Shown here: piece after piece, positions 36,053-46,180 of the stretch
Layout: every line of letters begins with the position of its first letter
How positions within the stretch are numbered: position 1 is the first letter of the stretch
NCBI RefSeq assembly: GCF_009914755.1
Contig: NC_060936.1
Origin: the human T2T-CHM13v2.0 reference genome, Homo sapiens
Length of the DNA: 64,000 bases
Direction: 5' to 3' (one strand)
The notes under the pieces: generated by a model
Databases searched by the model: none
The model's input: only the letters and a program-made list of their open reading frames with translations
Told to the model about the DNA's origin: nothing
Position numbers and translations under genes: made by a program

Positions 36053-36183
36053 GTGACACTGCTGAGTGTGGAGATGACTGCCCTAAAAGAGGAGAGAGAC
36101 CGACTCAGAGTCACTTCTGAGGACAAGGAGCCAAAGGAGCAGCTTCAGAAGGCCATCAGGGACCGCGACGAGGCCATTGCAAA
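36053..36183 (+). CDS. BICDL1: BICDL1 coding exon (131 nt, phase 0-2): VTLLSVEMTALKEERDRLRVTSEDKEPKEQLQKAIRDRDEAIA(K)
   Basis: ttctcctgttag| acceptor, AA|gtgagt donor; completes codon AAG with the next exon. Confidence 0.96.
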
Positions 36184-36467
36184 GTGAGTAGGGATGGCTT
36201 CACTTTATTCTTAAGATAAAGTTGAGTATATAGAATTGAGCATATGCTCAATTTTTTAAATTAAATCATACAAAAGAATACAAAGGTAAAAGTTAGTTTC
36301 CCCGCTACCCACCCCCACCCCCACCCCCACCCCCATTCCCATTCTCCTCCCCAGACACATGCTGGTATTGAAAGTTAGCTGTGCATTTTTTGCAGCTCTT
36401 TTTCTTATGCATATGTAGGTGTGTAGGCAATGTAGTTATTATGTGTTTTTAGACATCAATAGGATGA

Positions 36468-41042
<4,575 letters not shown>

Positions 41043-41544
41043 TTAAGATCATATTCTGTCATCAGCATGGAAGGTGGGATGGAAGGTGGGGGATACAAAC
41101 AGAGAAAGTGTCAGGGTGCAGGAGAGAAGAAGCAAGTTGTCCAGTCTTTCTCCCTTTAAAAAAAAAAAAAAAAAAAGTAAAACCTAGCTCTGCCACCTGG
41201 GTGAGCAAATCTACATGAAACCTTGTAATGCATGCTCTTGCCTGCTTTCAAAGGAGGCCCAGTTACTATCCAGGAGTCTGATTAGACTTGCAAATTCTCC
41301 CCTCTGGAAGGATGCCCCCAGTAGGGAGAACTCTGGAGCAAGGGTCCTGTCCTTCCTGGACTCCTATAGAACAGGGCTGGCTGGGCAGTTAGGTTACTCT
41401 GGGAGGATAGTTCTTTTCCCATACCTTAGAAATGAATTTTTGTTATACAAGAATTGAGACGACAAGCCTAAGGAATCATTTAAAGAGGAAACCACACCCC
41501 CCATTTGTATAGTAACTTAGTTTTACCAGATACTTCTTCCATAT

Positions 41545-41720
41545 ACGTTATCTCTGATTCTCCATCCTGGCCGCACATTACAATCATCTGGGGAGCGCTC
41601 AGACACCAGGAACCTCACCAGAACAATACAGTTGAAATCACGGGGTGGGGTCAGTTGGGTGGGGCCCACTTCTTTCCCCCTTGATTTTAATGTGTAGTCA
41701 GGGGTGAGAATCCCTAAGAA
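41545..41720. mobile_element. MER5A-like hAT DNA transposon remnant
   Basis: tctccatcctggccgcacattacaatcatctggggagc...gattttaatgtgtagtcaggggtgagaatcc, the typical MER5 imperfect inverted structure. Confidence 0.65.
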
Positions 41721-42039
41721 ATATAACTTCCTTCTCGTCACTGGGCTGCAGAAACCTTAAGGTGCACCTTCTCCTATACAATAAATGAGTTTCAGGAAAA
41801 TTAAGTAGCAATTTTTTTATCTCCTTGCAGGTGAAGGGCCTTCACTAAAACCAAAAATAAATCTTGGGCTAGCAATCTGCCTTACAAAAACAAGTCAGTT
41901 ACTAGTGGTTTCATTTGTAAAAAGGAATTATTCGAGCCCTTGGAATATTCCTATTTTTAAAATGTGATTAATGTGTTGATCCTGGTCTGGGGTTTCCCAT
42001 GAATGACGAGCACTTATTCCTTGGTGAGCAAATGTCCCA

Positions 42040-42740
42040 AGGGTGCAGCGCGTGGCCAGGATTGGAGGTCGTCCAGGCAGCCCCTGCCTCAGGGCGTTTT
42101 TTGGCAAGGAAGGGAACCCCACCATGCCCGGCGCTGCGCCGCGGCTGTAGCCCTGGGCCCATCTGTCCCTCGCCGGCAACGTTAGTCAGCACATTCCTGG
42201 GGCTCCCGCTGCTCTCGGCGCCACCTGCCGGGGGACGCCGGAAGCTCAGGAGGCTGTGGCTGTCGTGGGGCACCACGGGTTCTGACGCTACTGGAGGGGT
42301 GTCCATGGCAACCGATGCCGCGTGAGGATTTCCGCTGTTTGCTGCCAGCCAATAGCAGTGGGTGTGACGGAGGCAGCCTTCGGCATCTGAGCCCTCAGCA
42401 TCCATTAGACGGGCTCGGGTCCCGTCGCTGCCGCAGTGGGCGGGGCTGACGCGGTGGCTGAGCTGTCTGGAGCGGTTTCTCTAGGGAAGGCAGGCGGGCC
42501 GGCGGGCGGGGCGCACTTGCGGTGTCGGCACAGGTGACTAATTGCTCGGTAGACCTGAAGCCAAAGAAGAAGTGCTGGTCGCAGCAGTGGCCTGAGCACT
42601 TTGCAAGTGGGATCCACCTGTTCCTTTTTCTGGCCGCACTTCGGTTAGTGCGGTCGGTGTTGTGAAGCTCGAGCTAGGCGGCCTCTGCAGGCGGATCCTC
42701 TAGCTGCCCTTGAGCCCTGCACATTAGTCGCTGGCCCTGT
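42040..42740. promoter_or_regulatory. Intronic CpG island / candidate internal promoter with RFX X-box, CCAAT box and GC boxes
   Basis: Sharp CpG enrichment against a CpG-poor intron; GTGTCCATGGCAAC 42299-42312; AGCCAATAG (CCAAT 42349-42353); GGGCGGGG at 42438-42445 and 42504-42511; several TGACG half-sites. Confidence 0.8.
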
Positions 42741-43087
42741 ACAAGGAGCATGCTTTTGTTAGCTTTGCTGTTTTGAGTGCTTAAGGGAGCGATTAATGAA
42801 GGCAAGGGCTAAATAATACACGTTTCTGCAGTTGGGCAACCAGGGCTGCCTCTGCAGAGGTCCTTCCACCTTTATTCCCGTTCCCCTGCCCTCGAAAAAA
42901 ATTAATTTTCTTTTGCATTGAACAGCCGTGATTTAGGAATGTTGGGAAAGGTGAACAAAGTAATACGTGAAACACAAATGTGAAAATAAAAAAATGCAAA
43001 ATAATGTCGGAGGAGTTACCCATCAGTAATCATCACCCAGAGATAACCAACTAGACATTTTTGTGCATATCCTTGAACACACAGGCA

Positions 43088-44843
<1,756 letters not shown>

Positions 44844-45112
44844 TCAACTTCTGTTTCTTTATCCGTGAGGTGGGGATGACAAATATTCCTTTCACCTACA
44901 GGTTGGTTATGAAAACTGGGAGAATATATGTGAAAACATGTTGCAAACTAACCCTCCGCAGGCAACATCATAGTTATTGTTGCAGCTGCTATTTGTTGTG
45001 AGTTCAGGGTCAGAGCCTGTTTCCTCATCCTGGGACTCCAGGTGCCCCAAGTAAAGACCAAGATGCCTCTGGCACAAGGTGTCCATGTTCACCCTGGCTT
45101 GTCTGTTCTCAG

Positions 45113-45233
45113 GAAGAATGCTGTGGAGCTGGAACTTGCCAAGTGCAGGATGGATATGATGTCTCTGAACAGCCAGTTGCTGGATGCCATTCAGCAGAAA
45201 CTGAACCTCTCGCAGCAGCTGGAAGCTTGGCAG
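45113..45233 (+). CDS. BICDL1: BICDL1 coding exon (121 nt, phase 2-0): KNAVELELAKCRMDMMSLNSQLLDAIQQKLNLSQQLEAWQ; BicD-type Rab-binding C-terminal coil
   Basis: tgttctcag| acceptor, CAG|gtaaac donor; AIQQKL matches the BicD/BICD2 cargo-binding motif (MAIQQKLALTQRLE). Confidence 0.97.
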
Positions 45234-46071: not shown

Positions 46072-46180
46072 TTTGCTTCCTCAGGGCTTTTTACTATCTG
46101 GCTCCTTTGGTTTCTGATCTAGTGGCCTTTCTCAGTTCCCGTATCAACAGCTTTAGTTGTACACCCCTCCTGCCTTTGAG
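46072..46180 (+). other. BICDL1: Candidate alternative BICDL1 exon (109 nt) with in-frame stop: FASSGLFTIWLLWFLI* (TAG 46120-46122)
   Basis: Branch ggctgAc (A 46039), pyrimidine tract ctctctctcttctctccc, tacag| acceptor, GAG|gtgagc donor; no transcript evidence available here. Confidence 0.6.

What the first reader, a model, noticed from the sequence alone, without database searches (positions are those of the whole stretch)
42040..42740. Orphan intronic CpG island with RFX/NF-Y/Sp motifs upstream of the Rab-binding exon: candidate internal promoter for a cargo-domain-only mini-protein or an antisense RNA
Seen: CpG-dense island with an X-box (GTGTCCATGGCAAC), CCAAT, two GC boxes and a possible donor CAG|gtgact at 42533. 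The next exon (45113) has in-frame ATGs (M-D-M-M) just before LNSQLLDAIQQKL. Established: RFX X-boxes drive ciliary and testis genes; isolated BICD C-terminal fragments bind Rab6 but not dynein and act as dominant negatives. Inference: a transcript from here could encode an ~80-aa Rab-binding fragment that uncouples vesicles from dynein. The direction of transcription cannot be determined from sequence.
Basis: partly seen in the sequence, partly recalled or inferred. Interest (0 to 1): 0.7.

Follow-up and report, generated by a model that had tools for sequence, protein, structure and literature searches.

The report
Unannotated CpG island inside BICDL1 intron
A real, single-copy CpG island sits in the BICDL1 intron just before the exon that carries the Rab6-binding lysine; it is most likely an ordinary orphan regulatory island, and the proposed 81-residue mini-protein is possible on paper but poorly supported.

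Summary
Window 42040-42740 is a 701-bp CpG island: GC 65%, 53 CpG, CpG o/e 0.72 against 0.29 for the window. It has one match in its own genome and no Rfam family.

The motifs and the candidate donor are where stated. Against 1000 shuffles, only the X-box core is rare (2 of 1000). CCAAT and the GC boxes are at chance level.

Exon 45113-45233 carries the counterpart of mouse BICDR-1 K512, the Rab6-binding lysine.

Four weak asymmetries favour sense-strand initiation near 42.32-42.53 kb: GC skew, ATG depletion, the best donor, and the order of donor and poly(A) signals.

The mini-protein idea has several handicaps:
- No RefSeq transcript starts in the island.
- An out-of-frame ATG at 45118 comes before the in-frame ATGs.
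- The 81-aa product would keep only about the last third of the solved BICD cargo coil. The fragment shown to bind Rab6 was 196 aa.

Best reading: an ordinary orphan intragenic CpG island acting as a promoter-like or enhancer-like element. No expression, methylation or cross-species data could be reached.

The parts
42040..42740 (.). CpG island (701 bp, GC 65%, 53 CpG, o/e 0.72), single copy
42299..42312 (+). X-box-like near-palindrome GTGTCCATGGCAAC. The right half is perfect; the left half has one mismatch to the strict consensus (recalled).
   Evidence: The core 10-mer is reached by 2 of 1000 shuffles.
42349..42353 (+). CCAAT pentamer
   Evidence: with the inverted copy at 42061-42065, 2 observed vs 0.79 expected (190 of 1000 shuffles)
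42437..42446 (+). GC box TGGGCGGGGC, followed directly by TGACG at 42447-42451
   Evidence: 82 of 1000 shuffles for the 10-mer
42504..42509 (+). Second GGGCGG core, in a G-rich run
   Evidence: the GGGCGG count is at chance level (386 of 1000)
42238..42244 (+). ETS-like CCGGAAG
   Evidence: 116 of 1000 shuffles
42218..42231 (-). CTCF-like CCGGCAGGTGGCGC, one mismatch to CCASYAGRKGGCRS (consensus recalled)
   Evidence: It is one of 4 one-mismatch matches among 28 matches with up to 2 mismatches in the window (19.8 expected).
42483..42562 (.). RefSeq functional element of class 'enhancer', inside the island
   Evidence: the hub's annotation table; the underlying experiment is not given
42531..42539 (+). 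Candidate splice donor CAG|GTGACT; the exon would end at 42533
   Evidence: 7.5 of 9, the best on the + strand of the island
42316..42740 (+). ATG-free stretch on the + strand. G exceeds C in 42316-42533 (skew +0.19).
   Evidence: an ATG-free run of 426 nt is reached by 42 of 1000 shuffles; skew binomial p 0.026
45113..45233 (+). BICDL1 coding exon holding the counterpart of mouse K512 (Rab6 binding)
45118..45159 (+). Out-of-frame ATG with a 13-codon frame ending in TGA. It would be the first ATG of an island-to-45113 transcript.
45150..45161 (+). In-frame ATGs (M-D-M-M). The first has A at -3 and G at +4.

Best explanation
This is an ordinary orphan (intragenic) CpG island. It is a short stretch of unique DNA in the intron between BICDL1 exons 36053-36183 and 45113-45233 that has kept its CpGs. 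By established knowledge that means it is spared from methylation in the germ line. The simplest cause is that it is bound by factors and works as a regulatory element with promoter-like and/or enhancer-like activity.

If it starts transcripts, the sequence weakly favours the sense (+) strand. Initiation would lie somewhere in 42316-42533, giving a short ATG-free first exon that ends at the 42533 donor, or else an unspliced RNA of about 0.5 kb ending at the AATAAA at 42985. I expect the output to be low-level or restricted to some tissues, and mainly non-coding or regulatory.

Shown here: the island, its uniqueness, the motifs and the donor. Inferred: hypomethylation, factor binding, initiation and direction.
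For: - Island statistics and sharp borders.
- One match in the own genome by DNA search. The long open frame on the minus strand has no second match.
- No Rfam family in the island. There were 4 matches at E up to 1 in 41500-43300. Three lie in the Alu at 43103-43255, and the one inside the island scores 19.8 bits against a gathering score of 50.
- No Pfam family for the two longest open frames of the island.
- RefSeq lists an 'enhancer' feature at 42483-42562, inside the island (hub table).
- Base rate: 42% of 13,217 human orphan islands showed evidence of initiation, and 60% if H3K4me3 is counted (Illingworth 2010, section read).
- Sense hint 1: GC skew on the + strand rises from about 0 to +0.23 across the island and is +0.19 in 42316-42533 (binomial p 0.026). 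Among skewed CpG-island promoters, co-oriented skew outnumbers reverse skew 8332 to 2099 (Ginno 2013, passages).
- Sense hint 2: 3 ATGs on the + strand against 6.3 expected, and none from 42316 to 42740. The - strand has 8 against 6.3.
- Sense hint 3: all three TGACG and both GGGCGG lie on the + strand.
- Sense hint 4: on the + strand the best donor (42533) comes before the first poly(A) hexamer (42985). On the - strand, left of the X-box, only a weak donor-like site (41903, 6 of 9) comes before the hexamer at 41686.
Against: - No RefSeq transcript (16 models) starts in the island (hub table).
- CCAAT and GC-box counts are at chance level for this composition.
- Each directional hint is weak (p or shuffle fractions of about 0.03-0.06), and they were looked for after the fact.
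- CpA o/e is 1.40 and TpG o/e 1.18 inside the island, which suggests some CpG decay, so it may be methylated in part of the germ line or in tissues.
- No paper in the held library mentions this island.
- Methylation, chromatin state, transcription starts and cross-species conservation could not be examined with the tools at hand.
Confidence: 0.55

Rival explanations
1. The island is an internal promoter whose sense transcript splices from 42533 to 45113 and is translated from the M-D-M-M methionines. The product is an 81-residue C-terminal fragment (28 residues from this exon and 53 from the last) that binds Rab6 without dynein and acts as a decoy.
For: - The donor at 42533 is the best in the island, and the 45113 acceptor is a used, pyrimidine-rich site.
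- There is no ATG in 42316-42533.
- The ATG at 45150 has A at -3 and G at +4.
- The exon holds the counterpart of K512.
- BICDR-1 residues 382-577 bind Rab6 directly, and their overexpression reduces neurite outgrowth.
Against: - No annotated transcript has this start (hub table).
- The first ATG of such an mRNA would be the out-of-frame one at 45118, with A at -3. Its 13-codon frame covers the ATGs at 45150 and 45156 and stops 74 nt before the last junction. By the recalled 50-55 nt rule, that invites nonsense-mediated decay.
- The product would start at about position 63 of the 94-residue BICD2 cargo-coil chain, so it keeps about the last third of the solved coil. Only a 196-aa fragment has been shown to bind Rab6.
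- BICD1 and BICD2 have no island in the matching intron.
Confidence: 0.04
2. The island mainly starts antisense or two-way, short-lived non-coding RNA (promoter-upstream or enhancer-type RNA). Its role is as an enhancer for BICDL1, RAB35 or other neighbours rather than as a promoter of a stable product.
For: - RefSeq classes the overlapping feature as an enhancer (hub table).
- An antisense RNA from the island would meet a poly(A) hexamer at 41686 with only weak donor-like sites before it. By the recalled U1/poly(A) rule, that is the pattern of unstable upstream RNAs.
- Orphan islands with enhancer activity are described (search listing only, PMC4989897).
Against: GC skew, ATG depletion and motif strand all lean to the + strand, and the - strand shows no ATG depletion (8 against 6.3 expected). 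None of this excludes two-way initiation.
Confidence: 0.15
3. The island is a silent architectural or Polycomb-type island. It would be kept unmethylated by CTCF or CXXC/Polycomb binding, with little initiation, and might influence splicing or termination of the host transcript.
For: - A CTCF-like site lies at 42218-42231 (-), with one mismatch.
- Two CACCTG boxes lie on the + strand and one on the - strand (3 observed against 0.79 expected, 41 of 1000 shuffles).
- Activity of intragenic islands correlates with early termination of host transcripts upstream of them (Amante 2020, abstract only).
- Read-through from exon 36183 gives one lysine and then TGA, and seven poly(A) hexamers lie between 36260 and 41856.
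Against: The CTCF match misses a conserved A (consensus recalled). Matches with up to two mismatches are only mildly above chance in the window: 28 against 19.8, with 5 of 100 shuffles reaching 28. No RefSeq model ends in this intron (hub table).
Confidence: 0.12
4. The island has no function. It is a by-product of GC-biased gene conversion, or a decaying relic of a former regulatory element.
For: CpA o/e of 1.40 points to some CpG loss. Most motif counts are at chance level. No annotation or literature covers it (hub table).
Against: The edges are sharp and CpG o/e is 0.72 over 700 bp in an intron whose overall o/e is 0.36. A RefSeq functional element lies inside it. The X-box core is rare by chance.
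Confidence: 0.12

Closest known systems
Orphan / intragenic CpG islands (Illingworth et al. 2010, PMC2944787)
   Same: It meets the sequence criteria for a CpG island, lies inside a gene body away from any annotated start, and has a CpG density of 7.6 per 100 bp. It is the kind of element that often marks an unannotated, tissue-restricted start site.
   Different: Nothing is known here about its methylation, H3K4me3 or initiation. Membership in the experimentally defined (CAP-seq) set could not be checked because supplementary lists were closed.
CpG-island promoters with co-oriented GC skew (class I of Ginno et al. 2013, PMC3787257)
   Same: G exceeds C on the sense strand in the downstream half of the island.
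   Different: The skew is modest (+0.1 to +0.23 in 200-bp windows) and was not scored with SkewR, and no start site is known. It may equally belong to the no-skew class.
RFX-driven X-box promoters of ciliary and testis genes
   Same: A 14-base near-palindrome with a perfect right half-site, inside a CpG island.
   Different: The left half departs from the strict consensus. BICDL1 is not shown here to be an RFX target; 6 papers hold both CCDC64 and RFX words, one of which was opened and showed only a gene list, and the other five were judged from the listing.
BICDR-1C, the experimental C-terminal fragment (residues 382-577) of Schlager et al. 2010
   Same: It contains the same lysine (K512 in mouse) and the same C-terminal tail.
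   Different: The hypothetical natural product would be 81 aa, not 196. It would lack about two thirds of the cargo-binding coil and has never been observed.

Membership tests
CpG island (sequence definition; Gardiner-Garden/Frommer and Takai/Jones thresholds, recalled) | Length at least 500 bp, GC at least 55%, CpG o/e at least 0.65 | tested here: met
   701 bp, GC 65.0%, o/e 0.72
Orphan CpG island (Illingworth 2010) | Not associated with an annotated promoter | tested here: met
   No exon of the 16 RefSeq BICDL1 models starts in 42040-42740 (hub table), and 46072 is an acceptor. GENCODE was not available.
Orphan CpG island (Illingworth 2010) | Unmethylated in at least one tissue (captured by CXXC affinity) | not testable with these tools
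   Only inferred from CpG retention. Supplementary island lists were closed.
CpG-island promoter | Mapped transcription start (CAGE, PRO-cap) with H3K4me3 | not testable with these tools
CpG-island promoter | Co-oriented GC skew downstream of the start (class I) | tested here: inconclusive
   Skew +0.19 in 42316-42533, p 0.026. Not scored with SkewR, and no start site is known.
RFX X-box | Match to GTNRCC(N0-3)RGYAAC (consensus recalled) | tested here: inconclusive
   One mismatch, in the left half. One-mismatch matches number 10 in the window against 6.5 expected. The core CCATGGCAAC is reached by 2 of 1000 shuffles.
RFX X-box | RFX occupancy | not testable with these tools
   No ChIP data
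NF-Y / Sp1 proximal promoter boxes | CCAAT and GC boxes more frequent than composition predicts | tested here: not met
   CCAAT 2 vs 0.79 (190 of 1000 shuffles); GGGCGG 2 vs 1.31 (386 of 1000)
BICD-family Rab6-binding domain (for the proposed mini-protein) | Conserved lysine needed for Rab6 binding (mouse K512) | tested here: met
   The exon equals mouse BICDR1 484-523, so K512 is residue 29 of the exon. The requirement is from Schlager 2010.
BICD-family Rab6-binding domain (for the proposed mini-protein) | Whole C-terminal cargo-binding coiled coil present | tested here: not met
   Exon residues 5-38 align to 55-88 of the 94-residue BICD2 chain 6ofp_A. A start at residue 13 of the exon leaves about the last third.

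The most novel reading that the evidence does not exclude
The island is a tissue-restricted (for example RFX-driven) internal promoter that splits BICDL1 into two opposite products. Its own sense transcript would give the 81-residue Rab6-binding tail. Its activity would also end host transcripts early in the upstream intron, where read-through from exon 36183 adds one lysine and then a stop. That would give a dynein- and kinesin-binding adaptor with no cargo domain.
Probability: 0.04. Interest if true: 0.55.

Novelty: new member of a known kind. Interest (0 to 1): 0.2.

Why it matters
If the island is only a regulatory orphan island, it is one more of over ten thousand such elements and matters mainly for annotating BICDL1 and RAB35 regulation. 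It would matter more if it drove a sense transcript into the Rab6-binding exon. A natural cargo-domain-only fragment, or island-linked early termination giving a cargo-less adaptor, would be a built-in switch for dynein-dependent transport of Rab6 vesicles. An engineered C-terminal fragment already alters neurite outgrowth (Schlager 2010). The evidence here does not reach that far.

Tried and rejected
- Known RNA gene: rejected. Rfam at E up to 1 gave nothing credible in the island.
- Repeat or duplicated promoter: rejected at the sensitivity of the own-genome search. There was one DNA match, and the 170-aa open frame on the minus strand matched only itself.
- Hidden coding exon or retrocopy: no Pfam family for the 170-aa and 117-aa open frames.
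- Alternative start at 46072: rejected. It follows a pyrimidine tract and an AG.
- Family-wide internal island before the Rab-binding exon: not found. The BICD1 intron has no CGI-like block. BICD2's only block overlies the exon and its 3' side. BICDL2 is compact and CpG-rich throughout, and only 1 of 8 BICDL1 exons mapped cleanly, so it is uninformative.
- Genome-wide count of the exact 14-mer: 39 occurrences (25 + 14) against 2 for the tool's reversed control. The control contains a CpG, and a uniform expectation is about 23 (my arithmetic), so this says little.
- MHC-type S-X-Y module: considered from memory only, because X-box, a CRE-like GCGTGA and CCAAT follow in that order. The CCAAT orientation and the 36-nt gap do not fit what I recall of the DRA promoter. 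Not tested with any tool.
- Structured RNA downstream of the donor: the 147-nt stretch is unremarkable on both strands (z -0.86 and -0.65).
- Literature: no paper on this island or on a BICDL1 internal promoter. The coordinate searches used my own approximate conversion from recalled hg19/hg38 gene positions. The one CCDC64 methylation hit that was read lies in intron 1, far away.
- Earlier findings of this scan were not open.
- Supplementary files: one file of PMC7470969 held no Bicdl1 or Ccdc64.

Full report
**Observation**

Window 42040-42740 is a true CpG island. It is 701 bp long, GC 65.0%, with 53 CpG and CpG o/e 0.72; the whole window has o/e 0.29. In 200-bp windows, GC stays at 0.61-0.70 from 42000 to 42699.

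A lenient sliding scan (GC at least 0.5, o/e at least 0.6) found 20 blocks in the window. The block 41951-42840 is the longest (890 bp) and has the highest o/e (0.71). The borders are sharp. The 1-kb left flank has GC 43% and o/e 0.17, and CpG counts per 50 bp rise from 0-2 to 3-7 between 42000 and 42550. Inside the island CpA o/e is 1.40 and TpG o/e 1.18, so some CpG loss has occurred.

The hub's repeat list gives only the longest masked stretches, so it cannot show that the island is unmasked. The own-genome DNA search returned one place, the island itself.

**Motifs**

- GTGTCCATGGCAAC at 42299-42312
- CCAAT at 42349-42353
- TGGGCGGGGC at 42437-42446
- GGGCGG at 42504-42509

I also saw an inverted CCAAT at 42061-42065, CCGGAAG at 42238-42244, three TGACG (42283, 42365, 42447; all on the + strand) and three CACCTG.

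Against 1000 dinucleotide-preserving shuffles of the island:

| Motif | Observed | Expected | Shuffles reaching observed |
|---|---|---|---|
| CCAAT | 2 | 0.79 | 190 of 1000 |
| GGGCGG | 2 | 1.31 | 386 of 1000 |
| Sp1 10-mer | 1 | 0.09 | 82 of 1000 |
| TGACG | 3 | 0.92 | 53 of 1000 |
| CCGGAAG | 1 | 0.13 | 116 of 1000 |
| CACCTG | 3 | 0.79 | 41 of 1000 |
| CCATGGCAAC | 1 | ~0 | 2 of 1000 |

Only the X-box core stands out. Even so, it has one mismatch to the classical GTNRCCNNRGYAAC pattern (consensus recalled). Matches with up to one mismatch to that pattern are not enriched in the window: 10 against 6.49 expected, with 15 of 100 shuffles reaching 10. The looser pattern GTNNCCATGGCAAC has this one exact match in the window.

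The exact 14-mer occurs 39 times in the genome against 2 for the tool's reversed control. That control contains a CpG, and a uniform expectation is about 23 by my arithmetic, so the count is not informative.

A CTCF-like site, CCGGCAGGTGGCGC, lies at 42218-42231 on the minus strand with one mismatch to a recalled consensus.

**What it is not**

- Rfam at E up to 1 gave 4 matches in 41500-43300. Three belong to an Alu at 43103-43255. The one inside the island scores 19.8 bits against a gathering score of 50.
- The two longest open frames of the island (170 aa on the minus strand, 117 aa on the plus strand) match no Pfam family.
- The 170-aa frame matches only itself in the genome.
- The alternative exon at 46072 follows a pyrimidine tract and an AG, so it is a cassette exon and not a start site.

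**Direction**

Four weak features point to the sense strand.
1. GC skew on the + strand climbs from -0.01 (42000-42199) to +0.23 (42400-42599). It is +0.19 in 42316-42533 (88 G, 60 C, binomial p 0.026). Among human CpG-island promoters with a skew peak, co-oriented skew (8332) outnumbers reverse skew (2099) (Ginno 2013, passages). I did not run SkewR, and the skew here is modest.
2. The + strand has 3 ATGs against 6.34 expected (60 of 1000 shuffles have as few). It has none from 42316 to 42740; that 426-nt run is reached by 42 of 1000 shuffles. The minus strand has 8 against 6.27.
3. The best donor-like site of the island is on the + strand: CAG|GTGACT after 42533, scoring 7.5 of 9, with the next best at 6. 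The annotated BICDL1 donors in the window include comparably imperfect ones such as CAG|GTGCTG and CAG|GTAAAC.
4. On the + strand this donor comes before the first poly(A) hexamer (42985). Leftward on the minus strand only a weak site (41903, 6 of 9) comes before the hexamer at 41686. Reading this as a sign of productive versus abortive transcription rests on the recalled U1/poly(A) rule.

Each of these was examined after seeing the sequence, and none is decisive.

**The downstream exon and the mini-protein**

The exon is 39 of 40 identical to mouse BICDR1 residues 484-523 (PDB chain 6f1u_X), so the lysine in A-I-Q-Q-K is the counterpart of mouse K512. It also gives a weak, below-threshold hit to the end of Pfam BicD (profile positions 685-715 of 718, E 0.022).

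Schlager et al. 2010 (passages read) show three things. Residues 382-577 bind Rab6A/B directly. K512M abolishes that binding. Overexpressing this fragment, but not its K512M form, reduces neurite outgrowth. So 'Rab-binding exon' and 'C-terminal fragments act as competitors' both stand.

Three points weaken the proposed 81-aa product.
- In any transcript joining the island to 45113, the first ATG would be the out-of-frame one at 45118, with A at -3. Its 13-codon frame runs over the in-frame ATGs at 45150 and 45156 and ends at 45159, 74 nt before the last exon junction. By the recalled 50-55 nt rule, that would expose the RNA to nonsense-mediated decay whenever that frame is translated. The ATG at 45150 does have the best context, with A at -3 and G at +4, so leaky scanning remains possible.
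- Exon residues 5-38 align to positions 55-88 of the 94-residue BICD2 cargo-coil crystal chain (6ofp_A). A protein starting at exon residue 13 keeps only about the last third of that coil. Binding has been shown only for a 196-aa fragment.
- No RefSeq model starts in the island (hub table).

**Paralogues**

Using Pfam BicD on the own genome, I located the matching exons of BICD1 and BICD2 and fetched the introns before them.
- BICD1 has no CGI-like block.
- BICD2 has one block, which overlies the exon and its 3' side rather than the intron.
- BICDL2 lies in a compact, CpG-rich gene. Only 1 of 8 BICDL1 exons mapped cleanly by tblastn, so its two blocks cannot be called intronic.

An island before the Rab-binding exon is therefore not a family trait.

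**Best explanation**

The island is an ordinary orphan intragenic CpG island. It keeps its CpGs because it is spared from germ-line methylation, most simply as a factor-bound element with promoter-like and/or enhancer-like activity. RefSeq already lists an 'enhancer' feature at 42483-42562 inside it, though the hub table does not name the experiment.

In the one systematic study I read, 42% of 13,217 human orphan islands showed evidence of initiation, and 60% when H3K4me3 was counted. I put about 0.55 on a regulatory island with sense-leaning, low-level or tissue-restricted, mainly non-coding output.

The rivals are:
- an antisense or two-way enhancer-type start (0.15)
- a silent CTCF- or Polycomb-type island (0.12)
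- a functionless by-product (0.12)

**A related idea**

Amante et al. 2020 (abstract only) report that activity of intragenic islands goes with early termination of host transcripts upstream of them. Here, read-through from exon 36183 adds one lysine and then TGA. Seven poly(A) hexamers lie between 36260 and 41856. Such termination would therefore yield a cargo-less BICDL1. No RefSeq model ends there, so this remains speculation.

**Limits**

No expression, methylation, chromatin or cross-species data could be reached. No paper in the held library deals with this island. The papers that name CCDC64 and were opened concern another site or a bare gene list.

Noticed in passing
window 45118-45159 (+): An out-of-frame ATG inside the coding exon opens a 13-codon frame. 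Its TGA shares its last base with the third in-frame ATG (45159). It matters only for transcripts that begin downstream of the normal start codon.
   Followed up: partly
window 36181-36189 (+): Read-through of the donor after exon 36053-36183 gives one lysine and then TGA. Any polyadenylation in this intron (hexamers at 36260, 37092, 37415, 40631, 40816, 41780, 41856) would encode a BICDL1 that lacks the Rab6-binding end with almost no foreign tail.
   Followed up: partly
window 42630-42657 (+): An 11-bp hairpin with a 6-nt loop, about 100 nt downstream of the candidate donor (-19.2 kcal/mol; z -5.07 for the 41-nt cut, which I chose after seeing it). The surrounding 147 nt are unremarkable.
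   Followed up: partly
window 42218-42231 (-): CTCF-like motif with one mismatch to a recalled consensus, containing CpGs, inside the island.
   Followed up: no
window 42355-42374 and 42433-42452 (+): Two 20-nt direct repeats, 75% alike and 78 nt apart, each starting GCAGTGGG and containing TGACG. This may be chance.
   Followed up: no
window 43103-43255 (-): An Alu element (sub-threshold Rfam SRP and miRNA-family hits) just downstream of the island. It is not in the hub's list of longest masked stretches, which shows that the list is incomplete.
   Followed up: no
G000:C2:201327648-201328848 (+): Three adjoining matches to Pfam BicD (profile 308-717) with five in-frame stop codons in all (1, 3 and 1) and no introns between them. 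It looks like a processed BICD pseudogene on chromosome 2.
   Followed up: no
G000:C7:74936628-74936747 (+), locus L003: A 40-residue stretch 43% identical to the Rab-binding exon (E 0.001) in an open frame of 145 aa on chromosome 7. It is probably another coiled-coil gene; I did not identify it.
   Followed up: no
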